Shown here piece by piece: positions 1-58,575 of a stretch of DNA of 64,000 bases. The stretch is taken from assembly GCA_000091205.1 (NCBI GenBank), contig AP006502.2; one strand, given 5' to 3'. The notes beneath the pieces were generated by a model. The model saw only the letters and a program-made list of their open reading frames with translations, was not told the DNA's origin and made no database searches. Source of the stretch: Cyanidioschyzon merolae (lineage: Eukaryota). The first letter of the stretch is position 1, and every line of letters begins with the position of its first letter. The translations under genes and the position numbers were made by a program.

Positions 1-879
1 CCCCCCATTTCCCCCCATATCACTCCGGCCGGTTGGTCAAAGCGGAAAAGCGTCTGTTAATTCTATGTCTATTGTTTCAGATTCAATAGTGAATTTCCAT
101 CCGCGCTACAGCCGGAATTTATGCCATCTGTACTTGCGACCTCTGGCCCAGCAGAAGTACTACCGAATCTATGTTGCGATACTTTCTCTTTACATATGTA
201 TGTGTAGGAGCATCGCTTGGATTAACAGTATCATTAGGGAATTCTCTCCAGTTCTACCTTTGTTCACAAAACTTTCTAGTTTCCGGCTATCCCAGGTTGC
301 CTGATCGATATTTGCTCTCGGTGCGGCGTCTATTTTTTCGAGCATTATTTTGAGCTGCCGTCGCTGTTCCCCACTCTCGTCTGCACTCTTCTGTTTTTAC
401 ATATTATCGTGCATCGGTAACGAGCCTTGAGCACTCGCCGTGGCATCTCCGTCGCTGGTGTGGATGCACTACGGAAACAGATCAGCTTTCGCTTACCACT
501 AAGCGTTTCGGAATGTGCTCGTTGCTCGCGACACGAAATTGAGACTTTTCATATATGCTGGGTGTCTCCAAGCTGGACAGGCAGTCTCTCTGCTGCGATG
601 GTGCGACGCGGTCTACTATTCGTCTACCGCAATCTATGTGACGCTTTGACTCTAAAAAGCAGATCCAATTTCCAGAATCTATCTTTTTTCGAATGAGATT
701 CTAAGGTGGGTTACATCACTCGCAAAATTGTGGTCACCTGGAGTAGAGGCTGGTAAAGTCTCGCTGCTCGCCGACCCTCCTCCTAAATGTAATTGTTTGA
801 CCATACGCGAATACTTCATTCTGTTAACGTCTACAGTCAGTGGCGTTTGTACTTGCTATTCCGTTTTTCGATATTGTCT

Positions 880-3415
880 CTCTTTGGTATTTTCTATATC
901 GTCCGCCCTGGTAGCGCATCGCGAATTCTTGCCGTTACGTCACACTCTGTGCGTCTCGCCGATCATGGGGAACGTGTTAATGACCTCTTCTAGAGCGACT
1001 GCTCCATTGGGGCCACTTGCATTTTTAATTGAATGGTAGCAAAGTATTGTTTTGTATTCAATGGCGTTTCTAACTTCTAGTAAGAGTATTCAACTGATTC
1101 TCGCCATTCAACGCAGAGGTGTCCGACGAGTTTTTTACTAAAAAATGTCAGACTTTTGTAATTTTAGGTTGTGTGTTATGGAGGGCCGTTGTCGCCGAGT
1201 ATCGGGAAAAAAGGTGACAGAGTAGCTAATTCCAGAGGACTAGGAAAAGAAGTGGAAGCGAAATGGGGAGGTGCTACGACGAACGCTGCAGTAGTTTCGT
1301 GTCTATGTCGATATGGTTGTGGAATCCTGTCGTCTCCAACATATCAATGATCCGTACGACTGAACGCTCCGAGACGCAATCAGAAACCGCGTCGACTTGC
1401 ACTCCAGGAATGTTTGTTACTCTTTTTTAGGACTTACGCTTTTCGTGAGCGAGCTGCATCGCGACGTAATGCACATCGCAAAAGTGATTCTTCCGGAATA
1501 CTTTATCAAAAAAGACTTTCATCAACCACCTGATTGCTCGCAATGGGGGCGCATCAAAGAGAACTGGGCGGGCGGATGCCTACGTCAAAATTTACGACAA
1601 GTACAGCATCAACGGTGCTGGACACAGGGGTGACGCAGATATTTACGAATACAGGGCTTTAGGTGCCTCACGAATGTGAGGAACCATATGATCCTAATCC
1701 TCGATTGTATCACGATATGCGTTGTCATTGCGCTGTACCCGGGCCTGTTTCGCGAAGGGATACCGGTAATCATCGATGGTATGAAGAACGATCGCCAGCA
1801 TGAACAGAAGATCATATTTGTCGACAAGGGAACATCACGCTGGAGAATAAATAGGTATTCTGTTATCCGCCCAAGTATTCAAAAGCGTCGTTCGGTCTCG
1901 GGACTTGTCAACCCAAGAGAAAAACCTGTCATGTATGGAAAATATGAAGAGAGATGTTCCTTCCTCATCTTGCCCTACTTCATGGTTTTTGGATCGAGAT
2001 CTCGAACGCAGGGCCGAAATGGAGCTGAGTATGGATACAATGGAGTATTGGAGAGTTGGCACTGAAGAACTCCTCCAGTTGCGCTTTATTCGACCGGTTA
2101 TGCGAATTCCAGTCACATGTTTTGATTTTTGACTTTAGAGTTCTTTTCGCCTTCATGGAAGAGGTTTATCCAGTGCCCGATGGATGCGACAGAGACGTAA
2201 CCGGCGAAGACCGGGATACCTACTAGACGCGGAAGTTCGAGCTCAAGCGTCCGAAACCGGCCAGTAAAAGGTATTCACCGGGGCCATGGATAACGATCGG
2301 GTATACATATATGTACACTTTCAGCGGTAGCAGGCATTTGTCCCATCCCGTCTTCTTTACCGCCCTCGCCGAAGCACGGAAACAGGAAGGCCGGCCATGG
2401 GATATATAATCCCCACGAGGACGACCTCGTCGTCGGCCTCAAACCCTGGAATACTGATTTTATAACCATCGTTGTTACAAGCGTTCGGAATATTTTACTG
2501 AATGTAGCTTACGTCGGAATGACAGGCGTCTTTTGAGGTTCTAGAGATCGACGTTCTACCCAGAAGCGGGAATCGTGAATACGAGGAAGAAAATTGAGAC
2601 TTGGGATGCAAAAGTGGAAGAGCATCTCGAAGTTGTGAGCGAGGTGAAGAGCCGAGGAGCGGATTTTCAGGCTTTTCAAGATTTCATGGATGTTCGTTTT
2701 GCTCATTGGGATGCGCTGTGGAAGGAGTATACAAAGCCCCGGTGGGCTTTTCTACGTGCGAATCTATACTGTCGGAAGCAGCATGCATTCGCGGACTTTT
2801 TCAATGAGTTGAGCTCCTTGAAGGAGAATGAAAGTCTGAGGCTCGTAGTAGCATATTGAGCATGGAGCTGGGCGTCGAGAAAGGGGACTACGCGTGCCCC
2901 AACGACAAGGACATTCAAAAAGTGTGCACGGCGTCTCGTTACGGTAACTGTAGATGAATTTGGAGCTTCGTATACACACCACGAGCTGTGATGTACACTC
3001 CACAGGGGCGAGATGGAAAAGTGCCAACGGAACCCTGAGGAAATAGCAAAGTACGGACCGCTGACGGAAGAGCAAATGGAAATGAGGGCAAAAGTTCGTG
3101 GACTCCTTGCATTAGTAGGTACAACGAACGATGGCGAGAAACGGATGGAGTTCGTGAACCGAGACTTTAACGCCGCTATCAGTATCAGTAGATGTGCGGT
3201 GCTGGAGAAGAGACTTGCAAAGTAGACAAGAGACAACTTTGTTGGACAACCTCACAAAGCCGAACTATATGAGAGCAAGTTGGAAGCAGTAGTGGGTGGC
3301 CGGTCGAAAACGGCGGGGAGGCGTCTGCACATCAGCTGGAGACGTTATGTCTCGGGCGCCGGTGGCCACTACTGTGCACGACCGGCGTTGTTCGACTTAG
3401 TACGGCGTTTCGCCG
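880..3415 (+). mobile_element. Fanzor/TnpB-like element, copy 0: 5'-eroded and internally deleted (~330 bp missing between ~2130 and ~2460)
   Basis: Nucleotide and protein similarity to copies 1-4. Left-end-like sequence from ~900, ORF1-like fragments at 1397-2132, and the RuvC-II/III part at 2462-3225 (ORFs 2575..2859 and 3013..3225 end in VNRDFNAAISI). The conserved 3' tail ends ~3415. Confidence 0.55.
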
Positions 3416-5401: not shown

Positions 5402-6072
5402 AATAGAGGTGTCCTGCCTCTTGTGCAGTAGTGCAAAGACAACACGAGCAACCAAGATTACCTCGGTTGCGCTTCAAGGCGCCTCAGCGTCTACCGTACC
5501 AAGCACTGCAACGGTAACCGGGAGCAATGCAGGAATGAATTCCGTTGAGCGATCAACTTGCGACATAGATGTACAGAACGTACAGGAGCAATCTGGGTGT
5601 CGGACACGTCTCCTTCATCGAGCGGGGAGGCGTCTCGCGCAGTGCACGCATCGCTCTTGGTGAGCGTATACCTGGGAAATCAGGCAGTCAACTGACACGA
5701 TGCGTATGCCATTGAAGGGAAACGCGATCCTGATCAGTAGGGTGTTGTTGAACCGGAAAAAGTTGGATTTCAATTCAGGTCGTAGCCAAGAACATTTTTC
5801 ACTTCGTATTTGTTTCAACCTTCAAACAAGTCTAGACAAGTGGTTTTTCGCAGTATATAACAGAAGCGTTCAAAGAGCGTTGTTTTTTTAAAAAAAAAAC
5901 CTAAAAATGGAAAGCTTTGAGAAAGCAAGCTGACGATCCTGGAGGGCTAGGGTCGCCGGCCGCTAGAGACAAACAAAAAGCAGTACCGAGTCCAGAAGAA
6001 AAGGAAGAGAAGAAGAACCGAAAGCGGGAGGCCCTACGTCGGAGGCGGCAAGAAACATGACTGTAGAACGAG

Positions 6073-8267
6073 ATGGAGGTGAAAACCTTTCTTCTTGGAC
6101 GTATAAAGGATCCCTACAGGGAAAAGTTGCGAGAATCTATCGAAAAACGTGTCGACTCGTACTCCTTGAGGATTATGAAGGTTTCTTCATAACTATTCCA
6201 TTTGGTGAAGGAGATGTGTCGCGACGTAACCTAGATGGAAATGGTGGACATTCCGGACAAGTTTTTCGATAAGACCTTTATTCGTCACTTGATGCTTGGC
6301 ACAGAGAAAGCGCGGAAGGAAAATGAGCGGGTGTATGCGCTCCACGAAAAACATCCCTTTTACAGCTTCAAGGGTACTCGGTACAAGGGTGACCGGGATG
6401 TTTACGACTATGGGGCGATGAAGTACCTCACGAACCTGAAGAACCATTTGACAGAGAACCTCGAACGTTCCATGATACGCGCCGTGTTTGCGCTGTACCC
6501 TGGCATCGCTCGCAAAGGAAAATGGGCGATTACCAATGGCGTCACGAACGATCGCAAGCATGAAGATGCTATCGAGCTCGTCGACAAGAAGACATCACGT
6601 AAGCGAAAGAATGAAGCTTCTGTAATCCGTGCGGCCATACACGAGTACCGTACAGTCTTGGGGTTGGCAAATCCGACAGACAAGATATCAGAGTTGAAAA
6701 AATATAAGGAATGATACTATCGCCTCGTCCTGCGCTATTTTGTGTTTCTGGACCGAGAACTCGAACGCAAGGCAGAGGCGAGGCTGAGTGAGGAAAAAAA
6801 TGAAGAGTGGGAGAGACGGAAGGCTTTCCTAATGGGTAAGCGCTTCAACGTCGTTCCAACGTGCAAGATCAAGTGACATTTGTAACTATCGACTCTAGAA
6901 TCCTTCACGCCATCATGAAGGAGATCAGTCCGGAGTTCAGTGTCAGCAAGGAGAAGTTCTCCGGTGAAAACCGGGAGAGGTACTGGAAGAATATCTTCGA
7001 TTTCAAACGCTTGAGAGTGAGCAAGGAAACGTTGTTCACCGGGATGTTTGAAACCGATGGAGTAGCCTAGTGTGTACACTATCGGCGGTTCAAGAAAGAT
7101 CGTCCTGGTCCGCCGTCGGCTGTGCCCGTGACGAAGGATGAAGAAAAGAATGAGGCGGATCCTGCGACGCAGGAGGTGGAGGAGAACGAACTTATCTTTG
7201 ACGCGGCGAATCATGAAGATGAGGAGGAGGCGGATCCTGTGACGCAGGAGGTGGAGGAGAACGACCTTGTCGTTGACGTGGCGAAGCATGAAGGAAAGAA
7301 GGAGGCGGATCCTACAATGCAGAAAACGCAGGAGAACGACTTTGTCGTTGGTGTGGACCCTGGAAATACGAATATCATAACCATCGCAGCACCCAAGCGC
7401 GCGGAAGATGGTGCTGATGGTAACTTGCGTCGGAAAGACATGCGTCTTTTGAGGTTCTCAAGAGCTAGATATTACTGAGAATCCGGTGTAATGTATGCAA
7501 GGAAGAAAACCGAGAAATGGAATTCAGGAATGAAAGATCACCTAAAAGCTTTGAGCGAAGTGACGAGCCGAGGAACCGACTTTGAAGCTTTTCGGAAATT
7601 CATGGAAGATCGGTTTGCGCATTGGGATGCGCTGTGGGAGGAGTATACCATGCCCCGGTGGGCTTGTTTGCGTATGAATTTGTATTGTGGGAAGCAGCGG
7701 GCGTTCGCCAACTTCTTCAATCAGTTGAGCGCCTTGAAGGAGGACCAGAGTCAGAGGCTTGTAGTAGCGTATGGGGCAGGCCGCTGGAAGACCCAAAAAG
7801 GAACAATGCCACCTCCAACGACAAGAACGCACAAGGAGTGCGCACAACGTCTCTTTACGATACCTGTAGACGAGTTCCGAACATCCTATACACACCATGA
7901 ACTGGGATGTACACTTCAGAAAGTGGAGATGGAAAAGTGTTAGCGGAGCCCTGAAGACATAGCAAAGTACGGTCCTTTGACGGAAGAGGAAACGGAAAGG
8001 AGACCGAAAGTTCGAGGGCTACTCGCATAAGTGAATACAACTAACGGGAAGAAACCGATGGAACTCGTGAACCGGGACTTAAATGCCGCTATCAATATCC
8101 GAAAATGTGCGATGCTGGAGACGAGACCTCCAGAATGGACAAGAGGGAACTTTGTTGGACAACCTCTTGAAGTCGAACTATATGAGAGAAAGTTTGAAGC
8201 AGTAGTCGGTGGCCGGTCCAAAAAGACGGGTAGGCGTCTGCACGTCAGTTGGAGACGTCTTGTCTAG
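6073..8267 (+). pseudogene. Fanzor/TnpB-like (OrfB_IS605 family) nuclease pseudogene, copy 1
   Basis: The ancestral single ORF (~730 aa) is broken by in-frame TAA and TAG in the N-terminal part, TGA at 6715, a 1-nt deletion near 6880, TAG at 7071, TGA at 7479, TAG at 7944 and TAA near 8026. Fragments appear in the track as 6235..6714, 6861..7070, 7122..7478, 7491..7943 and 8031..8267. Confidence 0.7.
7122..7330. repeat. Three tandem ~75-bp (25-aa) acidic repeats inside the Fanzor-like ORF, immediately upstream of RuvC-I
   Basis: [26 protein letters not shown] / [25 protein letters not shown] / [26 protein letters not shown]. The other copies carry 1-2 units. Confidence 0.6.
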
Positions 8268-8340
8268 GGCGGCCCGGACGCCACTACTGTACACGGTCGG
8301 CTTCGTTCGAGTTCAGAACGGCGTTTGGCTGTGGTGTTGA

Positions 8341-10854
8341 ATGTCGAGCGCCGATCAGCCTCCGACCCAGTCTCAAGAGCAAAACTGGTCTCAGGTCTCG
8401 AGCACTGTCGTCGAAGTTGCCCACACAGTGGACGTTCATGTTCAACCCGTGTGCTTCGTCGATCTGAGCGAGGAAATTCACGCCTTCGCGCAGCTAGAAA
8501 AGTTTGCGAAGTGTGAATCATCCGAAGTTATCATAGATCTTAATGTCCGAAATACACATCAAGCTGTTGGGGCCCTCGTTCGCTGTCTGGAGGAGCGCGG
8601 AAAGTTGCCAGCTCACTCCGGAGACTTGCTACGGCGGCAGCTCCTGGGCGCAGAGCCACCGTCACTCTTTCAACTTGCACAGCAGGGGCTTCATATGTCT
8701 AGTGGGGGAGACGTACTCGGCCACGCTTCTGGATACTGGACACATAGCATACAGGGGCCCTCTTTTATTATTGGGTATACCGAAACCCCTTTGTTGCTTA
8801 GTGACGAGGAAGCAGTAGCAGTTGCACGGCTCGCACACCCACTGAACGCTGGGGCACTCAACAACTCGCTGACACGCTTCCTAGTACTTGTACTGACGCT
8901 TGCGCACGATACACCCCAGGTTCGCCGGGCGTCCGAAATGGCACGCGTTTTCGCTTCGCTTTTCGCAGATGAAGTATTCTACGACGAAGCTGTCGAGGCG
9001 TCCGATAGAGCTTCTTTCCTGGAGGCTATCCATCGTTTCCTTGAACGGCAACGGGACGCTGCACGAGAACGCGAAGCGCTGCATCGAAGCGTTCGATTGG
9101 CGACAGCAGCCACGGTGACTTTCTTCGATGATGATAATCATGTTGATGGTGATGGCGTTGCGGAGTATCTTGGTGGTACAGATGGCGGTACCCTTTCTGG
9201 GTGCAGAACAAAAGATGTGACTATTAACGACAATTTTGGTATCATGAACGCTCGCCTCGACCGATACTTCAAAGCACAAGGATATTCGAATCTGGATACG
9301 GTGCCACGCTGGAAGTACTGGTTGGCGCTGTTCTTTCGCTTTCCGGGGGCATTGATGGCTGCAGATCTTCGCCGCCGTCTACCCCATTATCGATCCGACT
9401 GGACAGCGGAATGGAACAAGATTCACGCTCTCGGAAAGTATTTCTTCGCGAGTATTTTTCTCATATTTACAGTCACGTTGCCTGCGATTGTTTTCGGCGT
9501 TATAGCGAGTCGCACGACTCACGGAGAGATTGGTGTCATCGAGTGTCTGTTTGCCCAGGGTGTACTGGGCATTGGTTTTGCGTTCTTCAGCGCCCAGCCG
9601 CTGATGGTGAATATGGTCACTGGTCCCACCATCGTCTACATTCAAGTGCTCTATCGCTGGTCCCAGAGGCTCGGGTTCGCATTTCTTCCCTTTTTTGGAT
9701 GGACAGGTATTTGGATGGGCATTTTTGTGATGTCGTATGCGATCATGAATACGTCAACACTCATACCGTACCTTGGCCGATTCACTGATGAGATTTTCCA
9801 AACCTTTATTGGAATCATTTTTATTCAATATTGGTTTACGGAATTTGTCCGAGTTACGCACACTGGCTACGAACAGGTCCTTTTATTCTTGGTGCTTTCT
9901 CTGGGAACGCTTCTGCTTGCGTTACTTCTGGTGTCTGTACGAGGCAGTTTCCTGCTACGCCCCATACTGCGATCCATTCTGGGGGACATCGGCCCCGCTC
10001 TCTCTGTTTTCATTTGGACCGGTCTGTCGTACGCGTTCGATCCGATTGATGTGCCTCGTCTGCAGATACCGGGCTCTGTTGGTTACAGCACAACGACTGG
10101 ACGACCGTGGATTGTCCCACTAGGAAGTCTATCCGTCGGCTATGTATTTTTGGCCATCGTTCCCGGCTGGCTGCTCTCGCTCATCGTCTACATTGATCAA
10201 CAGGTGTGTACTTATATCGTGGAACGACCGGAAAATCGCTTGCGCAAAGGCACTGGGTACAGTTGGAATCTTTTCGTGACTGGCGCTCTTGCCGTTCTTG
10301 CCTCGATTCTCGGCATACCTTGGATGTATGCAGGGCTGCCACACTCGCTTTTGCACGTTTATGCACTTGCTGAAATTGAGGACATAGAGCTCATGGGAAG
10401 ACGATGGATACGTGTTCTTCGTGCGCGGGAGGTGCGCATTGCTGCACTAAGCGCTTACCTCTTTGCCTTGTTGATCATTCTGGCCAAACCAGCTCTAGAT
10501 CAGCTGCCGATCTATGTGTTGTACGGCTTTATTCTGTACATGGGTGCAGCTTCATTTCTGAACAACCCTCTCTGGGATCGATTCGTTCTCTTGTTTACAC
10601 AGCCAACCAAGTACCCACCGACACATTATGTTCGACGTGTCCCCATGAGTCACCTGCACCTCTACACCTCTGTTCAGGTAATCCTTACAGTCGTTCTCTT
10701 TTTTGTCGCGGTCAATTTTTATCGAGGTGCAACTCTATTCAATACTGGCCTCATCTTTCCATTGGTCCTGTTCCTTTTCGTCCCATTCAAGTGGATGGTG
10801 TTGTATCGCTGGTTTCCGCGACGTGAGCTGCGCGTGCTTGAAAATCAGCTTTAG
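8341..10854 (+). CDS. SLC4/band-3-type anion exchanger (HCO3-/borate transporter family), 837 aa, single exon
   Basis: The start is ATG. The N-terminal half is cytoplasmic and the C-terminal half is multi-TM. Band-3 signatures are present: DLRRRLPHYRSDW (compare DIRRRYPYYLSD), GVIECLFAQGVLGIGFAFFSAQPLMVNMVTGP (compare [32 protein letters not shown]) and FTEFVRV. Confidence 0.8.
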   Translation: MSSADQPPTQSQEQNWSQVSSTVVEVAHTVDVHVQPVCFVDLSEEIHAFAQLEKFAKCESSEVIIDLNVRNTHQAVGALVRCLEERGKLPAHSGDLLRRQLLGAEPPSLFQLAQQGLHMSSGGDVLGHASGYWTHSIQGPSFIIGYTETPLLLSDEEAVAVARLAHPLNAGALNNSLTRFLVLVLTLAHDTPQVRRASEMARVFASLFADEVFYDEAVEASDRASFLEAIHRFLERQRDAAREREALHRSVRLATAATVTFFDDDNHVDGDGVAEYLGGTDGGTLSGCRTKDVTINDNFGIMNARLDRYFKAQGYSNLDTVPRWKYWLALFFRFPGALMAADLRRRLPHYRSDWTAEWNKIHALGKYFFASIFLIFTVTLPAIVFGVIASRTTHGEIGVIECLFAQGVLGIGFAFFSAQPLMVNMVTGPTIVYIQVLYRWSQRLGFAFLPFFGWTGIWMGIFVMSYAIMNTSTLIPYLGRFTDEIFQTFIGIIFIQYWFTEFVRVTHTGYEQVLLFLVLSLGTLLLALLLVSVRGSFLLRPILRSILGDIGPALSVFIWTGLSYAFDPIDVPRLQIPGSVGYSTTTGRPWIVPLGSLSVGYVFLAIVPGWLLSLIVYIDQQVCTYIVERPENRLRKGTGYSWNLFVTGALAVLASILGIPWMYAGLPHSLLHVYALAEIEDIELMGRRWIRVLRAREVRIAALSAYLFALLIILAKPALDQLPIYVLYGFILYMGAASFLNNPLWDRFVLLFTQPTKYPPTHYVRRVPMSHLHLYTSVQVILTVVLFFVAVNFYRGATLFNTGLIFPLVLFLFVPFKWMVLYRWFPRRELRVLENQL

Positions 10855-15037: not shown

Positions 15038-17622
15038 TCGCCTGGGAAATCGCGCAGTCAACTGACACGATGCGCGTGCCGCCGATGAAGGGAAACGTTG
15101 TCGTGATCAGTTACGTGTTGTTCTGCTGTAAACATCGGATTTCTGTTGAGGCCATAGCAAAATACAGTCTTTCGGTTCGGTTTTGTTTCAAACTTCAACC
15201 AAGTCTAGTAAAGTGCTTTTTCGCAGCATATAACAGAAGCGTTCATTGAGGGTTCATTAAAAAACGAAAAACGGAAAGCTATGGAAAACCAGTCGACGAT
15301 CCTGGAGGGCTAGGGTCGCCGGCTGCCAGAAAAAAAACAAAAAGCAGTGCCGAGTCCAGAAGAAAAGGAAGGGAAGATGAACCGAAAGCGGGAGGCCCTA
15401 CGTCGGAGGCGGCAAGAAACATGACTGTAGAACGAGATGGAGGTGAAAACCTTTCTTCTTGGACACATCAAGGATCCCTACAGGGAAAAGTTGCGATACC
15501 CTATCAGAAAACGTGTCGACTCGTACTCCTTGAGGATTATGAAGGTTTCTTCATAACTATTCCATTTGGTGAAGGAGATGTGTCGCGACGTACCGCAGAT
15601 GGAAATGGTGGAGATTCCTGACAAGTTTTTCGATAAGACCTTTATTCGTCACTTGATGCTTGGCACAGAGAAAGGACGGATGGAAAATGAGCGGGTGCAT
15701 GCTCTCCACGAAAAACATCCCTTTTACAGCTTCAAGGGTACTCGGTACAAGGGTGACCGGGATGTTTACGACTATGGGGCGATGAAGTACCTCACGAACC
15801 TGAAGAACCGTTTGACAGAGAACCTCGAACGTTCCATGATACGCGCCGTGGTTGCACTCTACCCGGGCCAGTCTCGCCAAGGAAAATGGGCGATTATCAT
15901 AGGAATCACCAAAGATCGCAAGCATGAAGATGAGATCGAACTCGTCGACAAGAAGACATCACGTAAGAGAAAGAATGAAGCTTCTGTCATCCGTGCGGCC
16001 ATACACGAGTACCGTACAGTCTTGGGGTTGGCAAATCCGACAGACAAGATATCAGAGTTGAAAAAATATAAGGAATGATACTATCGCCTCGTCCTGCGCT
16101 ATTTTGTGTTTCTGGACCGAGAACTCGAACGCAAGGCAGAGGCGAGGCTGAGTGAGGAAAAAAATGAAGAGTGGGAGAGACGGAAGGCTTTCCTAATGGG
16201 TAAGCGCTTCGACGTGGTTCCAATGTGCAAGATCAAGTCACATTTGTGACTATCGACTCCGGCGTCCTTTACGGCATCATGAAGGAGATCAGTTCCGAGC
16301 TCAATGTCAGCAGGGAGGAGTTCTCCGGTGAAAACCGGGAGACGTACTGGAAGAATATCCTCAATTTCAAACGTCTCAAAGTCAGCGCGAAAAAGAAATT
16401 CACTGGGATGCTCGAAACCGATGGAGCAACCATTTGTGTACACTATCGGCGGTTAAAGAAAGATCGTCCAGTCCCGCCCTCGGCTGAGTCCTCTGCGAAA
16501 CATGAAGAAAACAAAGAAGCGAATCCTGAGACGCAAAAATTGCAGGATGACGACCTTGTCGTTGGCGCGGTGAGGCATGAAGAATAGAAGGAGGCAGATC
16601 TTGCGACGCAGGAGGTGCAGGATAACGACCTTGTCGTTCCTGCGGACCCGGGGAATACAAATATCATAACCATCGTTGTGCCCAAGCATGCGGAAGATGG
16701 TACTGACGGCAACTTACGTCAGAAAGACACGCGTGTGTTGAGATTCTCGAGAGCGAGAAATTATCGAGAATCCGGTATAATGAATGCGAGGAAGAAAATC
16801 GAGACTTGGGATGCAGGAATGAAGGATCAAATGGAAGCTTTGAGCGAGTTGACTAGCCGACGAACGGACGTTGAAGCTTTTCGGAAATTCATGGAAGTTC
16901 GCATTGCGCATTGGGATGCGCGGTGGGAGGAGTATACAAAGCCCCGGTGGGCTCGTCTGCGTATGAATTTCTACTGTGGCAATCAGCGGGCGTTCGCGAA
17001 TTTTTTTTAATAAGTTGAGCGCCTTGAAGGAGAATGAAAGTCAGAGGCTCGTAGTAGCGTACGGAGCAGGACGTTGGGCGTCGAGAAAAGGGACTACACC
17101 AGCTCCAACGACAAGGGTGTACAAAGAGTTCGCAAGGCATTTCGTTACGATACCTGTATTTGAGTTCCGAACATCGTATACACACCATGAGCTGGGTTGT
17201 ATACTCCAGAGAGTCGAGATGGAAAAGTGCCTGCGGAGTCCTGAAGATATACAAAAGCACGTACCGCTGACGGAGGTGCAACTGGAAAGGAGGGCGAAAG
17301 TGCGAGGGCCTCTCGCATTAGTAAGTACAGCCAATGATGGCAAGAAACGTATGGAGTGTGTGAACCCAGATTTTAATGCCGCTATCAATACAGGAAAAAG
17401 TGCGGTGCTGGAGAAAAGATCTCCAGAGTGGACAAGAGGGAACTTTATTGGACAACCTCTCAAAGTTGCACTATATAAGAAGAAGTTGTAAGCAGTACTA
17501 GGTGACCGGTCCAAAAAGAAGGGGTGGCGTCTGCCCTTACTTGGAGATGTTTCGTCTAGGGCGCGGTTACAGCCACTACTCTACAGCTGGCGACAGCGTT
17601 TTTTCTTTTGAAAGGTGTTTCT
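15038..17622 (+). mobile_element. Fanzor/TnpB-like element, copy 2 (pseudogenised)
   Basis: Same left end, ORF and right-end tail as copy 1. It shares copy 1's two N-terminal nonsense codons and its 1-nt deletion, and has its own frameshift at the run ttttttttaataag (~17005). Confidence 0.75.
15437..17560 (+). pseudogene. Fanzor/TnpB-like nuclease pseudogene, copy 2
   Basis: Track fragments are 15566..16078, 16225..16587, 16615..17010 ([13 protein letters not shown]...RLLRFS) and 16976..17491 (LVVAYGAGRW ... FEFRTSYTHHELGC ... VNPDFNAAINT). Confidence 0.7.
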
Positions 17623-31770: not shown

Positions 31771-31813
31771 AATGCTGCCACAAGTAAACGTCTTGTCTAT
31801 GAAAAAAAGAATC

Positions 31814-34443
31814 GCGCTCGGTGGGCGCACCTAGGAGATCGGGAAGTTAACTGACAAGATGCGTGTGCCGTTGTTGAAGGGAAACGCGATCGTGATCAGA
31901 AGCGTGTTGTTCTAGCTGTGAAAGTCGGATTTCCGTTGAGATCGTAACCAAGTACAGTATTTCAGTTCGTTTTTGTTTCAAACTTCAAACAAGTCTAGTC
32001 AAGTGTTTTTCGCAGTATAGAACGGAAGCGTTCAAAGAGCGTTCAAGAAATAAAAATAAAAAACTAAAAAAAGAAAAGTTATGAAAAAGCAAGTCCACGA
32101 TCCTGGAGGCGCATTGGCGCCGGCTGCCAGAAAAAAAAAACAAAAAAACCGTACGGAATCCAGAAGAAAAGGAAGAGAGGAAGGACCGAAAGTGGGAGGC
32201 CCTACGTTGAAGGCGGCAAGAAAGACAACTGTACGACGAGATGGTGGTGAAAGCCATTCATCTTGGACATATCAAGGATCCCTACAGGGGAAAGCTGCGA
32301 GACGCTATCAAAAAGCGTGTCGACTCGTACTCCAAGAGTATTGTCAATGCGTCGTCGGGACTGATGTATTTGGCGAGGAAGATGTACGAAGACGTGAAGC
32401 ACATGGAAACGGTCGAGATTCCAGACAAGTTTTTCGACAAGACGTTTATTCGTCACCTGATGCTTGGCACAGAGAAAGCGCGGATGGAAAATGAGCGGTT
32501 GCATGTTCTCCACGAAAAACATCCCTTTTACAGCTTCAAGGGTACTCGAAACAAGGGTGACTGGGGTGTTTACGACTGCGGGTCGATGAAGTACATCACG
32601 AATCTGAAGAACCATTTGACAACGAACCTCGAACGTTGCATGATACGCGCCGTATTTGCACTGTTCCCTGGCATCTCTCGCAGGAGGATATGGGCGATTG
32701 TCAACGGCATCACGAATGATCGCAGGCATGAAGGTGAGGTCGAATTCGTCGACAGGAAGGCGTCAAAAGAGAGCACGAATGAAGCTTCTGTAATCCGTGC
32801 GGTTATACAAGAGCACCGTGCAATCTTGGGGTTGGCAAATCCAACAGACAACATATCAGAGCTGAACAAAAGATAAGGAAAGATACTATCGCCTCGTCCG
32901 GCGGTATATCGTGCTTCTGGACCGAGAGCTCGAACGCAAGGCAGAGATGAAGCTGAGCGAAGAGACAAATGACGAGTGGGAGAGATGGAAGGCGTTCCTA
33001 ATGGGTAAGCGCCTCAGCGTCGTTCCAATGTGCAACATCAAGTCACATTTTGCGAAAGTCGACCCCAACGCACATTACAGCAAAATGAAGGAGATCTGTC
33101 CGGAGGTCGATGTAAAGAAGACAGAGTTCACCGGTGAAAACCGGGAGACGTGCTGGAAGAATATCTTCGATTTCAAACGCCTCAAAGTCAGCAAACAAAA
33201 GGTATTTACTGGGTTGATCGAAACCGATGGAGTAGCCTTGTGTGTACACTATCGGCGGTTGAAGAGAGATCGTCCAGTTCCGCCCTCGGCTTCGCCCGTG
33301 ACGAAGGATGGAGATGAGAAGAAGGCGGATCCTGTGATGCAGGAGGTGTAGGATAACGCCTTTATGGTTGGCGCGGCGAAGCATGAAGAAAACAAGAAGG
33401 CGGGCCCTGAGACACAGAAAGTGCAGGATAACGATCTTGTCGTTGGCGCGGGCCCCGGGAATACGAATATCATAATTATCGCAGCACCGAAGCGTGCGGA
33501 AGATGGTACTGACAGCAACTTGCGTCAGAAAGACATGCGTCTTTTGAGGTTCTCGAGAGCGATATACTATCGAGAATCGGGTATAACGAATGCAAGGAAG
33601 AAAATTGGGACGTGGAATGCAGGAATGAAGGATCGCCTGGAAGCTTTGAGCGAGGTGACGAGCCGCGGAGCGGACTTTACAGCTTTTCGGAAATTCGTGG
33701 AAGATCGTGTTGCCCATTGAGATGCGCTGTGGGAGGAGTATACCAAGCCCGGTGGGCTCGTCTGCGATTGAATCTATACAGTGGGAGGCAGCGGGCGTTT
33801 GCCAATTTTTTCAATCAGCTGAGCGCCCTCAAGGAGGATGAAAATCAGAGGCTCGTAGTAGCGTACGGAGCAGGGCGATGGAAGACCCAAAAAGGGACTA
33901 CGCCAGCTCCAACGACAAGAACGTACAAGGAGTGTGCACGGCGTTTCGTTACGATACCAGTAGATGAGTTCCGAACATCGTATACACACCAAGAGTTGGG
34001 GTGTACACTTCAGAGAGTCGAGATGGAAAAGTGTCAGCGGAGCCCTGAGGAAATAGCAAAGTACGCACCGCTAACAGAAGAGCGAATGGAAAGAAGAGCG
34101 AAAGTTCGTGGACTACTTGCATTAGTGAGTACAACTCCCAACGGCATGAAACGCATGGAGTTTGTGAACCGTGACTTAAATGCCGCTATCAGTATAAGGA
34201 AATGTGCGGTGCTGGAGAACTGAACTCCAGAGTTGACACGAGAGAAAACTTTATTGGACAACCTCTCAAAGTGGAACTATATGAGAAACAGTTGGAAGCA
34301 GTAGTGGGTGGCCGGTCCAAGAAAACTGAGAGGCGTCTGCACGTCAGTTCAAGACGCTATGTCTAGGGCGCGGTTGCCGCCACTACTGTACACCGCTGGC
34401 GACAACGTTTTTCTTTCGAAAGGCGTTTGTTGTTGGCGGTGAT
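31814..34443 (+). mobile_element. Fanzor/TnpB-like element, copy 3 (pseudogenised), directly downstream of the LINE remnant
   Basis: Same left end, ORF and right-end tail as the other copies. It has the most intact N-terminal part (ORF 32241..32876, 211 aa). It carries TAG at 33352, TGG>TGA at ~33720, a 1-nt deletion near 33745, a 2-nt indel before the native stop, and a +1 insertion in the A-run at ~32868. Confidence 0.75.
32241..34376 (+). pseudogene. Fanzor/TnpB-like nuclease pseudogene, copy 3
   Basis: Track fragments are 32241..32876, 32911..33351, 33364..33720 ([15 protein letters not shown]...RLLRFS) and 33612..34223 (LVVAYGAGRW...DEFRTSYTHQELGC...VNRDLNAAISIRKCA). Confidence 0.7.
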
Positions 34444-55319: not shown

Positions 55320-56123
55320 AACGCCAGCAACGGCAACTCCAACGTTGCCAAAACCGTTGTTGCTGCGGGACGCACCCGTGCCTCCAAGGAACAACGTTGT
55401 CAGTCGCGCGCGATTGGCGTCTTGGTAGGAACGTTCAAAGGAGTCGGATGCCGGCAGGTGATTCCCTTTTCGATGACAAAACGTTTCCATGAACCATGGA
55501 TCCCAGTTTGCGGAATGGGTATTCGTAATCGAAAAAAAAGGTTCATCATGCGGCAACAACCTGCATGTTCCATGAACCAGATATCCTCTCGGATACACTG
55601 GTCGTTTCGTGCGCTCTATCGTGTGCCAGTTGTCTGCCTGGCTGCACTCGCAATAGCAGTCATACCGCTGGAGCAGATGCAGCACGGAGACAGAACCGCT
55701 TTTCCATACCACTGAGGGCTTCGACTCGATGCTTGGTTCATCCGAGACCGGGTCGGAGTACATAATCATTCTGGGGGTCAGCAAGCTGCTCAGAGAGGCT
55801 TACTTTCTGCGACTGCGCGAATCGACATGCAAGGAGACCACTGCGACCAGGGCGATGCCCAGACCCAGCATACCCAATTCGTGTCCCAGAATAGATTGCG
55901 TTGCGGACGGCTGCCCTGATCTCACGAAAGGACCCACCACTGGGAGGCGCATGAAGCACGAGTCTGGCGGACTTGTCCGGCTCGCGGGACCTTCCGCCTA
56001 AAGGATGAATTTTCGACAATATGGAAACCGCTCTCCCCTTTTAACGTGTTTCGCAGAGAAGGAAAGAAATTTTTATCCAGTTGCAAGGTTAGAGGTTAGT
56101 CTCTGTCCATGTTTGTGTATAGC

Positions 56124-58575
56124 GCGGTTGATACGCGCACCTTGAGATCCAGCAGGCGTGAGATCCGACGTGCATCTCGCCCTTGAAGGGAAACGCGATC
56201 CTAATCAATAGCACGTTGGTATGACGTACAGGTTGTATTTGCATTGCATGTATCTCATTTTATAGTCTTTCAATTCAATGCTTTTTCAACCATCACGTTG
56301 GTATATTCATGTGATTTCTCGCGGTTTCTAACTGAAGCGTTCAAAGTGCTCTCGTGCTAAAAAATAAAAAAAGAAATTCATGGAAATAGAAGTGGAGGAC
56401 CCTTGAGGCCTTATGTCGTCGGCTGCCGGAAAAAACGGAAAAGAGTCCCGAGCCACGTGGAGCATGGGAAGATGTAGAAGCAAAAGAATGAGGTCCGACG
56501 CCAAAGGCTGCGAGAAAGACGAAATTACGACGAGATGTCGGTGAAAGCCTGTCTCCCTAAACATATCAAGGATCCGTACAAGGAAAAGTTGCGAGAGGCC
56601 ATCAGAAACCGTGTCGCGTCGTACTTGACCAATGCTCGTCACGCATCTTTAGGATTGATGTATATGGCGAAGGAGATGTATCGCGACGTGATGGAAATCA
56701 AAATATTCGAGCTTCCGGACGAATGTTCCGACAAGACCTTTATTCGTCATCTGATGCTTGGCACAGAGGAAACGTCGAGAAGAAACGAGCGAGTGCATGC
56801 CCTCCACGAAAAATATCCCTTCTACATCTTCCACGGTACTCGATACAGGATAAGAGTGATATTTACGAAATCGGGGCGAAGAAATACCTCACGAACCTGA
56901 AGAACCATTTGACAATGAACCTCGAACGTTTCATGATACGTGCCGTGCTTGCATTCTACCCGGGCATGTCTCGGCAATGAATATGAGCGATTATCAATGG
57001 CATAACGAACAATCGCAAGCATGAACAGGAGATCGAATTCGTCGACAAGAAGACACCATGCAGGAAAAGGTGTAAAACTTCTGTAATCCGTGCGGCGATT
57101 CAAGAGCGCCGTCCGGTACTGGGGCTGCTCAACCCATCAGAAAAAGTAGCAGATATGGGAAAAACATTATTCTCTCATCCTGCGCTATTTCGTGTTTTTG
57201 GACCGAGAACTCGAACGCAAGGCCGAGATGAAGCTCCGTGTGGGAAAAAACGAAGAGTCGGAGAAACGGAAGGCTGCGCTTCTGAGGAAGCGCTCCAACG
57301 CCGTTGCGCAATGCGGCGTCAAGTCACACATTTTGACAATCGACTCCAGAGCCCTTTTCCGCATCACGAAGGAGATAAGTCCGGAGTTCGATATAAGCAG
57401 GGACGAATTTATGGATGAAAACCGAGTAACTCGTTGGAAGAATATCTTCGATTTCAAACTCCTCAGAACGAGCGCGCAAAAAGTATTCACGGGAACGATC
57501 GAAAGCGATGGGGTATCCACGTGTGTTCACTACGGGCACCTGAAAGTGTATGATCCTTTTCCATCTTCCATATGACCCTCGGCGAAGCATGAAGAGAAGA
57601 AGGAGGCAGATCTTGCGAGGCAGAAAGTGCAGAAGAACGACTTTGTGGTTGACGCGGACCCCGGAAACACGAACATCATAACCATCGCAGTACCCAAGCG
57701 TGCGGAAGATGACATTCACGGTAGCTTACGTCGGAAAAACATGCGTCTTTTGAGGTTCTCGACAGCAAGATACTATCGAGAATCCGGTATGATGAATGCG
57801 AGGAAGAAAATCGAGACATGGAATGCAGGAGTGAAGGATCACCTGGAAGCTATGCGCAAGGTGACGAGCTGCGGAGCAGACTTTCGAGCTTTTCGGGAGT
57901 TCATGGAAACTCGTGCTGCCCATAACGAGAAGCTTTCGAACGAATATGCCAGGCCCCGGTGGGCTCGTCTGCGAATGAACCTGCTCTGTGGGAAGCAGCG
58001 TGCATTCGCCAAATTCTTGAATCAGTTGAGCCCCCTCAAAGAAAACAAGATCCAAAGGCTCGTAAAGGCATATAGAGCACGACGCGAGGCGTCAGGAGAA
58101 GGCAGCACACCAGCGCCATCGACGAGAACGTACAAGGAATGCGCACACCGTTTTGTCACAATACCGATAGACGAGTTCCGAGCGTCATACGTCCACCATG
58201 ATCTGGGGTGCACAATCCAGAGAGTCGAGATGGAAAGGTGCCAGCGAATTCGTGAGGATATCAAAAACTTCGGAGCGCTGACGGAACAACAAATGGAAAG
58301 GAGGGCACAAGTTCGGGGATTTCTTGCAGTGGTGAGTTCCATCTCGGGCAAAAAACGCATGGAGTTCGTGCACCAAAACATAAACGCCGCTTTCAATATC
58401 AGGAGATGTGCAGTGATGGAGAAGAGATCTCCGCATCTGGCGCGAGCCAACTTTATGGGGCAGCCTCTCAGGGTTAAAGTGTACGAGGAGAAGTTGAAGC
58501 CAGTAACAGGCGGCCGGTCCAAAAAGCCTGGGAGGCGTCTCCACGTCAGTGTATAGACATGTACGCTATCGACAT
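56124..58575 (+). mobile_element. Fanzor/TnpB-like element, copy 4 (pseudogenised; right-end tail divergent or truncated)
   Basis: Same left end and ORF as the other copies. It has an 11-nt deletion at the ORF1/ORF2 junction (~57160), other frameshifts around 56900-57000, and a single acidic repeat unit. Its conserved 3' tail is replaced after ~58575. Confidence 0.7.
56535..58556 (+). pseudogene. Fanzor/TnpB-like nuclease pseudogene, copy 4; retains an uninterrupted 309-aa RuvC-containing C-terminal ORF (57627..58556)
   Basis: ORF 57627..58556: [15 protein letters not shown]...RLLRFS...LVKAYRARREASGEG...IDEFRASYVHHDLGCTIQRVEMERC...VHQNINAAFNIRRCA. RuvC-III Asp is replaced (NRDLNAAINI in other copies becomes HQNINAAFNI here). 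Confidence 0.7.

What the first reader, a model, noticed from the sequence alone, without database searches (positions are those of the whole stretch)
7700..8110. Non-canonical catalytic site: RuvC-II glutamate absent, zinc finger rewired to HH...C...C
At the position where TnpB has RuvC-II (hydrophobic-hydrophobic-E-D/N-L, e.g. VIVIEDL), every copy has LVVAYGAGRW (copy 4 LVKAYRARREASGEG), so there is no acidic residue. The CxxC...CxxC zinc ribbon is replaced by YTHHELGC-x10-C (copy 4 YVHHDLGC...C). RuvC-I Asp (DPGN) and RuvC-III Asp (NRDLN) are retained in copies 0-3. A relocated RuvC-II glutamate has been reported for Fanzor and some TnpB clades. This family could carry the same rearrangement, or could be a nuclease-dead derivative. 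The amino-acid state is shared by all five copies, which argues it predates their decay and is not a pseudogene artefact.
Basis: partly seen in the sequence, partly recalled or inferred. Interest (0 to 1): 0.6.

Follow-up and report, generated by a model that had tools for sequence, protein, structure and literature searches.

The report
Decayed zinc-finger-less Fanzor1 transposon copies
The region is one of five dead copies of CMe-1A, a red-alga transposon published in 2013. Its "missing" catalytic glutamate is the normal relocated glutamate of all Fanzor RNA-guided nucleases, and the only unusual feature is that this branch has lost the usual four-cysteine zinc finger.

Summary
The window is Cyanidioschyzon merolae 10D nuclear DNA. 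The finding lies in one of five same-strand, decayed copies of CMe-1A, the Fanzor1 (TnpB-like) element of Bao & Jurka 2013. Their CMe-1 consensus protein already reads LVVAYGAGRW...VDEFRTSYTHHELGC...EKC...NRDFNAAINI.

Gly at the canonical RuvC-II position, with a Glu six residues before the first zinc-ligand position (VDEF), is the published "Ealt" arrangement that defines Fanzors (SpuFz1 E541). All five copies keep that Glu.

In about 100 intact relatives the D, G, E and RD positions are essentially invariant. Among the window copies dN/dS over the RuvC/NUC part is 0.16-0.45. A nuclease-dead family is therefore unlikely, although every window copy is itself a pseudogene.

The CCCC zinc ribbon is truly absent, both here and across the whole clade examined (0 of 100 scorable representatives have two Cys pairs). 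CMe-1's H/H/C/C residues are not conserved even in the sister lineage, so "rewired zinc finger" is not supported.

Structure models match only solved Fanzor1 structures strongly.

Verdict: a known family with a known catalytic rearrangement. The clade-wide zinc-ribbon loss is a modest feature that I did not find described for Fanzor1.

The parts
5679..8294 (+). Copy c1 of the CMe-1A element, the copy that holds the finding. It matches consensus nt 672-3137 and is a pseudogene.
   Evidence: blastn against the published consensus gives 83-87% identity. It carries 10 in-frame stops and 1 frameshift.
7053..7061 (+). TDG motif of the WED domain (FETDGV), a Fanzor1 hallmark.
   Evidence: Sequence. 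The motif is defined in Yoon 2023 and is invariant in relatives.
7127..7351 (+). Three tandem 75-nt (25-aa) repeats in the linker just before RuvC-I. The last unit supplies the start of strand beta-1.
   Evidence: Repeat family D15. The equivalent linker has low pLDDT in the P0151 model.
7344..7370 (+). RuvC-I motif VVGVDPGNT, carrying the catalytic Asp in the Fanzor-type DPG context.
   Evidence: Asp is present in 100 of 100 relatives.
7758..7787 (+). LVVAYGAGRW, the strand that carries the canonical RuvC-II position. That position is Gly here.
   Evidence: Gly is present in 97 of 97 relatives. It aligns to VMGDW of SpuFz1.
7866..7889 (+). VDEFRTSY. The Glu codon at 7872-7874 is the relocated (Ealt) catalytic glutamate.
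   Evidence: It aligns to LDEY (E541) of SpuFz1. Glu is present in 95 of 96 relatives.
7890..7943 (+). THHELGCTLQKVEMEKC followed by a TAG stop. This is the remnant of the first zinc knuckle, with no CxxC.
   Evidence: The H/H/C/C residues are not conserved in relatives.
8067..8090 (+). RuvC-III motif VNRDLNAA, carrying the catalytic Asp.
   Evidence: RD is present in 94 of 94 relatives.
8199..8290 (+). Candidate omega-RNA terminal stem. GCAGTAGTCGGT (8199-8210, inside the ORF) pairs with GCCACTACTGT (8280-8290, at the element's 3' end).
   Evidence: RNAalifold on four copies. The stem is conserved but shows no covariation, so this is inferred only.
1029..3387 (+). Copy c0 of CMe-1A, the most decayed copy.
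   Evidence: 74.6% identity to the consensus. It carries 10 stops and 16 frameshifts.
15064..17615 (+). Copy c2 of CMe-1A.
   Evidence: 83-87% identity to the consensus. It carries 6 stops and 7 frameshifts.
31813..34425 (+). Copy c3 of CMe-1A.
   Evidence: 81-90% identity to the consensus. It carries 3 stops and 4 frameshifts.
55471..58550 (+). Copy c4 of CMe-1A. It is the only copy with the 5' 635-bp module and matches consensus nt 1-3092.
   Evidence: 80.7% identity to the consensus. It carries 5 stops and 3 frameshifts. Its motifs read KAYRARRE and HQN.

Best explanation
The region is the RuvC/NUC-coding part of a dead copy of CMe-1A, the Fanzor1-bearing repeat of Cyanidioschyzon merolae.

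The ancestral protein had the standard Fanzor active site:
- Asp in DPG (RuvC-I).
- Gly at the old RuvC-II position.
- The catalytic Glu moved to the end of the next strand (VDEF, six residues before the first zinc-ligand position).
- Asp in NRD (RuvC-III).

By homology it worked as an RNA-guided DNA endonuclease, guided by an RNA transcribed from the 3' end of the element.

It belongs to a large Fanzor1 clade that has lost the CCCC zinc ribbon of the NUC domain but keeps the hairpin scaffold. In relatives, the clade's protein is often encoded next to a Tc1/mariner-type DDE_3 transposase.

What is shown: identity with CMe-1A, motif mapping, fold, conservation, and purifying selection during the family's spread. 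What is inferred: nuclease activity, independence from zinc, and the guide RNA.
For: - Host and family. The neighbouring ORF is C. merolae BAM83046.1. The five copies are 75-90% identical to the published CMe-1A consensus. The published CMe-1 protein has the same motifs.
- Literature. Fanzors have Gly or Pro at canonical RuvC-II and an alternative Glu that is essential for cleavage. The DPG and Ealt signatures, with E six residues before the first CxxC, and the TDG motif define the lineage. SpuFz1 coordinates Mg through E541, D383 and D606. Bao & Jurka noted G500 and E536 as extremely conserved in Fanzor1.
- Sequence profile. The clade profile hits PpFz1 9CF0 (E 2e-19), SpuFz1 8GKH (E 4e-11) and GtFz1 9CER, with the motif mapping described above.
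- Fold. The CMe-1 RuvC/NUC model has pLDDT 86.7 and the full-length relative P0151 has pLDDT 89.2. For both, the top seven PDB matches are all Fanzor1, with TM up to 0.61/0.71.
- Conservation. D 100/100, G 97/97, E 95/96 and RD 94/94.
- Selection. dN/dS is 0.16-0.45 over the RuvC/NUC part.
- Zinc ribbon. Canonical Fanzor1 controls each have two Cys pairs. 97 of 100 scorable clade representatives have none, and none has two.
- Transposase linkage. A DDE_3 transposase lies directly upstream in two of the four relatives' loci examined.
Against: - No biochemical data exist for this clade. A Fanzor1 from Chlamydomonas gave no cleavage in vitro, so activity cannot be assumed.
- The zinc ribbon is part of the original family-defining motif, and its loss could impair target-strand loading.
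- All five window copies are pseudogenes.
- The window elements have no transposase, no terminal inverted repeats and no recognisable target-site duplication.
- The guide-RNA stem has no covariation support.
- I could not read model coordinates, so the triad geometry was not measured.
Confidence: 0.85

Rival explanations
1. The zinc finger is rewired rather than lost. In CMe-1 the residues H, H, C and C of THHELGC-x10-C form a new HHCC or HCC zinc site that replaces the CCCC ribbon.
For: The four residues are conserved in 17-18 of 19 C. merolae family proteins. The first His occupies the column of the first canonical Cys. Bao & Jurka's own alignment places H..C and the later C in the zinc-finger Cys columns. 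Two relatives, P0162 and P0335, also read THHE..C-x16/17-C.
Against: In the intact sister subclade:
- The second His position is A, H, C, Y or S.
- The first Cys position is Q, C, S or N.
- The last Cys position is Arg or Val.

In the wider clade the first Cys is present in only 4 of 94, and the last Cys falls in an insertion that 84 of 103 lack. Conservation within the C. merolae family is expected from recent common descent alone.

In the model, HHELGC is a loop between bridged residues 189 and 196, and the last Cys comes after a five-residue strand that leads away from it. A four-ligand site therefore looks topologically unlikely, but this is inference because no coordinates were available.

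The second canonical knuckle (GLLGC..C in SpuFz1) is GLLALVSTT here, with no ligands.
Confidence: 0.1
2. The family is a nuclease-dead, domesticated or purely RNA/DNA-binding derivative of Fanzor1. Loss of the canonical Glu and of the zinc ribbon would then reflect loss of cleavage.
For: The canonical Glu and the CCCC ribbon are both absent. Inactivated TnpB derivatives are known in prokaryotes. Copy c4 and its cluster P0039 have an open 309-codon frame with RuvC-III RD changed to QN and the Gly changed to Arg.
Against: The full Fanzor D-E-D triad is invariant across about 100 relatives, while the surrounding residues vary. That pattern is not expected if catalysis were lost. Absence of the canonical Glu is the norm for active Fanzors. 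The elements are multicopy and transposon-like (about 150 copies), not a single domesticated gene. The RD-to-QN change is confined to one decayed copy lineage.
Confidence: 0.1
3. The apparent non-canonical motifs are an artefact of pseudogene decay or of a shifted hand alignment.
For: All five copies carry stops and frameshifts. Pfam detects only a sub-threshold TNB match.
Against: The same motifs occur in the published consensus, in uninterrupted family ORFs up to 716 aa (P0147) and in intact 590-740 aa relatives.
Confidence: 0.02

Closest known systems
CMe-1 protein / CMe-1A element of Cyanidioschyzon merolae (Fanzor1; Bao & Jurka 2013, Mob DNA 4:12)
   Same: Same organism and same element. 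The window copies are 75-90% identical in DNA to the consensus. The key motifs are identical: AYGAGRW, VDEFRTSYTHHELGC, EKC and NRDFNAAINI. There are no terminal inverted repeats.
   Different: The window copies are individually dead. Copies c0-c3 lack the 5' 635-bp TE-N2_CMe module. The number of 25-aa repeats before RuvC-I varies from 1 to 3.
Solved Fanzor1 nucleases: SpuFz1 (8GKH), PpFz1 (9CF0), GtFz1 (9CER)
   Same: Same overall fold and domain order (TM 0.61/0.70 full length). Shared features are TDG in WED, DPG/DPN at RuvC-I, Gly at canonical RuvC-II, the relocated Glu in xDE[FY]xTS, and RD at RuvC-III.
   Different: Those proteins have a CCCC zinc finger in the NUC domain. CMe-1 and its clade have none. 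Sequence identity is only 11-21%. SpuFz1 elements have 30-nt inverted repeats.
TnpB2 / pro-Fanzor and Fanzor2 (rearranged RuvC-II, Ealt)
   Same: Same relocation of the RuvC-II glutamate, shown to be essential in ApmFz2 (E467) and active in TvTnpB.
   Different: They are smaller proteins linked to IS607 or IS605, and they retain CxxC...CxxC. Fold matches are far weaker (E 5e-5 or worse).
Prokaryotic TnpB branches that lost the C4 zinc finger (e.g. RIIIr-4; Altae-Tran 2023 PNAS)
   Same: They give a precedent that the zinc finger between RuvC-II and RuvC-III can be lost in large branches that are still predicted to be active.
   Different: They are prokaryotic, have a different catalytic rearrangement (RuvC-III), and are not related by descent to this eukaryotic clade as far as tested.

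Membership tests
Fanzor1 | Named member in the founding paper, with DNA identity to the published element | tested here: met
   blastn gives 75-90% identity over up to 3.1 kb to CMe-1A. The protein motifs are identical to published CMe-1.
Fanzor1 | DPG motif at RuvC-I | tested here: met
   DPGN is present in c1, c2, c4 and the consensus. It has decayed in c0 (KPWN) and c3 (GPGN). D and G are each 100/100 in relatives.
Fanzor1 | Non-acidic residue at canonical RuvC-II, plus an alternative Glu six residues before the first zinc-ligand position (Ealt) | tested here: met
   The motifs are AYG and VDE-FRTSYT-H. They align to SpuFz1 VMGDW and LDEY E541. G is 97/97 and E is 95/96 in relatives.
Fanzor1 | RD at RuvC-III | tested here: met
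   NRD is present in c0, c1, c3 and the consensus. c2 reads NPD and c4 reads HQN. RD is 94/94 in relatives.
Fanzor1 | TDG motif in the WED domain | tested here: met
   ETDG lies at 7050-7061 (c1), 16411-16428 (c2) and 33217-33234 (c3). It is nearly invariant in relatives.
Fanzor1 | Fold: WED-REC-RuvC-NUC architecture like the solved Fanzor1 structures | tested here: met
   The top seven PDB matches are all Fanzor1 for both models. E is 1e-10 and 6e-17, and TM reaches 0.61/0.71.
Fanzor1 / TnpB (Bao & Jurka motif) | C4 (CxxC...CxxC) zinc finger between [TS][TS] and RD | tested here: not met
   There are no Cys pairs in CMe-1. 97 of 100 scorable clade representatives have none and none has two, while seven canonical Fanzor1 controls have two each. 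Membership therefore rests on descent and fold. This is an atypical, zinc-ribbon-less branch.
Fanzor1 | Guide (omega/fRNA) encoded at the 3' end and overlapping the end of the ORF | tested here: inconclusive
   A conserved 10-11 bp stem joins the ORF end to the element terminus, but only 2 of 64 predicted pairs covary. There is no Rfam match.
Fanzor1 | Carried by a eukaryotic transposon (transposase, TIRs, TSD) | tested here: inconclusive
   The window copies have no transposase and no terminal inverted repeats. Relatives P0151 and P0359 sit directly downstream of a DDE_3 (Tc1/mariner-type) transposase.
Fanzor1 | RNA-guided, TAM-dependent DNA cleavage | not testable with these tools
   This needs biochemistry.
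Canonical TnpB (IS200/605 type) | Glu in the hydrophobic-hydrophobic-E-D/N-L RuvC-II motif | tested here: not met
   The position is Gly in all copies and all relatives.

The most novel reading that the evidence does not exclude
CMe-1 belongs to a large Fanzor1 clade that I did not find described as such. The profile search gave 595 representatives of 50%-identity clusters at E below 1e-10, of which only the best 149 could be inspected. Members include Volvox VCa-1 and elements linked to DDE_3 transposases, one of them (P0359) on a gene-dense, possibly giant-virus contig that also encodes a family-B DNA polymerase. The clade has lost the CCCC zinc ribbon of the NUC/TNB domain entirely while keeping the D-E-D triad invariant. 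If these proteins are active, they are naturally zinc-independent RNA-guided nucleases.
Probability: 0.45. Interest if true: 0.45.

Novelty: already known. Interest (0 to 1): 0.22.

Why it matters
The element and its protein were published in 2013, and the relocated glutamate is the textbook signature of Fanzors. The headline of the finding therefore adds nothing new.

What may have some value is the side result. A whole Fanzor1 clade shows strong conservation of the catalytic triad and signs of purifying selection, yet lacks the zinc ribbon that the founding paper called strictly conserved and that the solved Fanzor1 structure examined here (SpuFz1) has. If these proteins cleave DNA, the zinc ribbon is dispensable for loading substrate into the RuvC site in eukaryotic enzymes too. 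They would also offer a different scaffold for engineering.

Tried and rejected
- Pfam scan of the repaired consensus gave only a sub-threshold TNB hit (E 0.064) and nothing for the N-terminal half. Pfam cannot classify this clade.
- The PDB sequence search with the narrow C. merolae profile found only a chance hit (angiogenin, E 0.39). A 102-sequence clade profile was needed to reach the Fanzor1 structures.
- An Rfam scan of the element found no match.
- The consensus fold of the 3' end gave a plausible stem but no useful covariation. I do not claim an omega-RNA.
- The search for terminal inverted repeats in the full-length copy c4 and in the P0151 contig found none at the ends.
- The afdb50 fold library was unavailable, so organisms of the structural relatives could not be named that way. 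Cluster look-ups gave no organism names for the wider clade.
- Model coordinates are not exposed, so I could not measure D-E-D or H/H/C/C distances.
- I considered that the motifs were decay artefacts and rejected this.
Full report
**What is in the window**

The 837-aa ORF at 8341-10851 is identical to C. merolae 10D "probable anion transporter" BAM83046.1 on a 1.62-Mb contig. The window is therefore nuclear DNA of this red alga.

Repeat finding and a multiple alignment show five copies of a roughly 2.5-3 kb repeat, all on the + strand. A majority consensus restores a single frame over the C-terminal 328 residues.

Other ORFs in the window are ordinary host genes: copper amine oxidase, the SLC4-type transporter, a Pex2/12 RING protein, the NatA auxiliary subunit and AMPK beta. 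There is also one reverse-transcriptase ORF.

**Identity of the repeat**

Bao & Jurka 2013 (PMC3627910) described one Fanzor1 family in C. merolae, called CMe-1A:
- About 150 copies, each about 80% identical to the consensus.
- A 3169-bp consensus encoding a 734-aa protein.
- No terminal inverted repeats, and target-site duplications undetermined.

Their deposited CMe-1 protein reads ...QRLVVAYGAGRWTTQKG...VTIPVDEFRTSYTHHELGCTLQRVEMEKCQRSPE...RMEFVNRDFNAAINIRRC....

blastn of their DNA consensus against the window gave these matches:

| Copy | Window coordinates | Identity to consensus | Consensus nt covered |
|---|---|---|---|
| c0 | 1029-3387 | 74.6% | 769-3145 |
| c1 | 5679-8294 | 83-87% | 672-3137 |
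| c2 | 15064-17615 | 83-87% | 687-3167 |
| c3 | 31813-34425 | 81-90% | 648-3169 |
| c4 | 55471-58550 | 80.7% | 1-3092 |

The finding therefore lies in copy c1 of a published element.

**Check of the observation**

| Motif | Coordinates |
|---|---|
| VVGVDPGNT | 7344-7370 |
| LVVAYGAGRW | 7758-7787 |
| VDEFRTSY | 7866-7889 |
| THHELGC-x10-C | 7890-7940 |
| In-frame TAG | 7941-7943 |
| VNRDLNAA | 8067-8090 |

- c0 has stops inside both motifs (LVVAY*AWSW, HHEL*C), and its RuvC-I reads KPWN.
- c3 reads GPGN and THQELGC.
- c2 has NPD in RuvC-III.
- c4 has KAYRARRE and HQN.

Every copy is a pseudogene, with 3-10 in-frame stops and 1-16 frameshifts relative to the consensus.

**The "missing" RuvC-II glutamate**

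The literature states that all Fanzors, and a subset of TnpBs, replace the canonical RuvC-II Glu by Gly or Pro. They use a conserved Glu some 45-50 residues downstream, which is essential for cleavage (ApmFz2 E467).

Yoon et al. define the lineage by DPG at RuvC-I and by "Ealt", a Glu six residues before the first CxxC. They add a TDG motif in the Fanzor1 WED domain. In the SpuFz1 structure Mg is held by E541, D383, N385 and D606. Bao & Jurka had already noted G500 and E536 as extremely conserved in Fanzor1.

CMe-1 has all of these: ETDG, DPGN, AYG, and VDE followed by FRTSYT and then the first-ligand column, and NRD.

A 102-sequence clade profile hits PpFz1 (9CF0, E 2e-19), SpuFz1 (8GKH, E 4e-11) and GtFz1 (9CER, E 0.002). 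The printed alignment puts AYG on VMGDW, xDEF on LDEY and RD on RD.

The Glu is kept in all five window copies, as VDEF, VFEF or IDEF.

**Is the family dead?**

A profile search of 1.84 billion cluster representatives found 1272 relatives at E up to 0.001 and 595 at E up to 1e-10. Many are intact proteins of 590-740 aa.

In 103 relatives aligned with 19 C. merolae family proteins, the key positions were:

| Position | Conservation in relatives |
|---|---|
| RuvC-I Asp | 100/100 |
| Gly of DPG | 100/100 |
| Gly at canonical RuvC-II | 97/97 |
| Relocated Glu | 95/96 |
| RuvC-III RD | 94/94 |

Mean column identity in that alignment is only 21%, so these positions stand out.

Among the window copies and the consensus, Nei-Gojobori dN/dS is 0.16-0.45 over the RuvC/NUC part and 0.49-0.79 over the N-terminal part. 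Much of the divergence therefore arose while the ORF was under purifying selection. Family ORFs up to 716 aa without stops exist in metagenomes (P0147).

This argues against a nuclease-dead family. It does not prove activity.

**The zinc finger**

Canonical Fanzor1 sequences from the 2013 supplement (CRe-1, CRe-2, CRe-4, CRe-5, CVu-1, PUl-1) and SpuFz1 each have two Cx(2-4)C pairs and 4-6 Cys between Ealt and RuvC-III. CMe-1 has no pair and 2 Cys.

Results for the wider clade:

| Set | No Cys pair | One pair | Two pairs |
|---|---|---|---|
| 100 scorable top representatives | 97 | 3 | 0 |
| 74 scorable hits of the second search | 72 | 1 | 1 |

The median number of Cys in that segment is 1.

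The alignment to SpuFz1 shows that the first canonical Cys column is the first His of CMe-1 and the second is Leu. The second knuckle (GLLGC-TNPN-C in SpuFz1) is RGLLWC.ST in the clade and GLLALVSTT in CMe-1.

CMe-1's H, H, C and C are not conserved:
- In the wider clade the two His positions are His in 39 and 27 of 94.
- The first Cys is present in 4 of 94.
- The last Cys lies in an insertion that 84 of 103 lack.
- In the intact sister subclade (P0151, P0327, P0346, P0350, P0335, P0362, P0370) the second His, the first Cys and the last Cys positions all vary.

In the model of a C. merolae family protein, HHELGC is a loop between bridged residues. The last Cys follows a strand that leads away from that loop. 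A four-ligand site therefore looks unlikely, although I could not measure distances.

Bao & Jurka's alignment did place these residues in the Cys columns, so the "rewired" idea is understandable. The zinc ribbon is best read as lost in the ancestor of a large clade, with the hairpins kept.

Loss of the C4 finger in large prokaryotic TnpB branches is already documented. I found no statement about such a loss in Fanzor1 in the papers searched.

**Fold**

The AlphaFold2 model of P0012, the RuvC/NUC part of a C. merolae family protein, has mean pLDDT 86.7. Its topology fits the triad:
- The Asp lies at the end of strand 5-12.
- The Gly lies at the end of strand 144-150.
- The Glu lies just after strand 177-181.
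- The RuvC-III Asp lies at the start of helix 251-264.

Its top seven PDB matches are all Fanzor1, with E from 1.5e-10 to 2.8e-7. Cas12 variants and Fanzor2 follow at E 2.7e-5 or worse.

The full-length model of P0151 (pLDDT 89.2, pTM 0.88) again matches only Fanzor1 strongly. E is 6e-17 to 9e-16, and TM is 0.61/0.69-0.71 to SpuFz. The next hit is at 9e-5.

**Context of relatives**

- P0151 lies directly downstream of a DDE_3/HTH_Tnp_Tc3 transposase on a brine-metagenome contig.
- P0359 lies directly downstream of a DDE_3 gene (E 2.7e-22) on a gene-dense contig with a family-B DNA polymerase.
- Two other loci showed no transposase.
- Volvox VCa-1, from the 2013 set, aligns to the clade profile (probability 99.6%, E 2e-23) and also lacks the Cys pairs.
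- The window copies have no transposase and no terminal inverted repeats, in agreement with the 2013 description.

**How it most likely worked**

By homology, the ancestral CMe-1 was an RNA-guided DNA endonuclease with a D-E(alt)-D RuvC site and a zinc-free NUC domain.

A conserved stem pairs GCAGTAGTxGGT, inside the end of the ORF (8199-8210 in c1), with GCCACTACTGT at the element terminus (8280-8290). This resembles the terminal stem described for Fanzor1 guide RNAs. With four sequences and almost no covariation, it is only a lead.

**Verdict**

The catalytic "anomaly" is the defining, already characterised Fanzor arrangement. "Rewired zinc finger" and "nuclease-dead" are not supported. The clade-wide absence of the zinc ribbon is a modest result that I did not find described for Fanzor1.

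Noticed in passing
window 7127-7351 (c1, 3 units); 16491-16640 (c2, 2 units); 33297-33446 (c3, 2 units); 57578-57652 (c4, 1 unit): A 75-nt (25-aa, E/K-rich) tandem repeat sits just upstream of RuvC-I, and its last unit supplies the start of strand beta-1 (..NDFVVG). Copy number varies from 1 to 3 in the window and reaches 5 or more in metagenomic family proteins (P0001, P0147, P0008). It lies in a linker that is low-confidence in the P0151 model.
   Followed up: partly
window 5966-6881 versus 15330-16245, and 6879-8270 versus 16243-17564: Copies c1 and c2 are 93-98% identical in the 5' half and share the same four stops and one frameshift. They are only about 80% identical in the 3' half. This mosaic pattern suggests recombination or gene conversion between element copies, or duplication of an already dead copy.
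   Followed up: partly
window 57627-58556 (+): Copy c4 keeps an uninterrupted 309-codon frame over the whole RuvC/NUC part even though RuvC-III RD has become QN and the conserved Gly has become Arg. A nearly identical protein (P0039) represents a cluster of 27 member sequences in the protein collection.
   Followed up: no
window 55471-56100; 31495-31693 (- strand); 424-511: Only c4 carries the 5' roughly 635-bp module that Bao & Jurka equate with the separate repeat TE-N2_CMe. Copies c1-c3 begin at consensus nt 648-687, just after that module. Isolated fragments of the module lie upstream of c3 (inverted) and upstream of c0.
   Followed up: partly
window 8294-8341 and 34425-34427: Two host ORFs begin immediately downstream of an element's 3' end. 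The SLC4-type anion transporter ATG is 47 nt after c1. The Pex2/12 RING protein ORF, as listed with a TTG start, begins 2 nt after c3. The element ends may lie in or act as promoter or 5'UTR sequence.
   Followed up: no
window 19567-26931 (- strand ORF, 2454 aa); repeats at about 20845-25000 and 19620-20051: A very long ORF contains more than 40 copies of a degenerate tandem repeat, with spacings of 24 and 144-174 nt. A separate array of seven overlapping 144-nt matches spaced 48 nt apart (a 48-nt tandem repeat) lies at 19620-20051. GC content is raised there (0.57-0.59).
   Followed up: no
window 28156-30675 (+): An 839-aa ORF with a reverse-transcriptase domain (RVT_1, E 1e-21) marks a retroelement between CMe-1A copies c2 and c3.
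   Followed up: no
L005 430-7755; L001 541-3706: Intact zinc-ribbon-less relatives sit directly downstream of DDE_3 (Tc1/mariner-type) transposase genes. One of these contigs also carries a 1278-aa family-B DNA polymerase and a WLM protease gene, which may mean a giant virus.
   Followed up: partly
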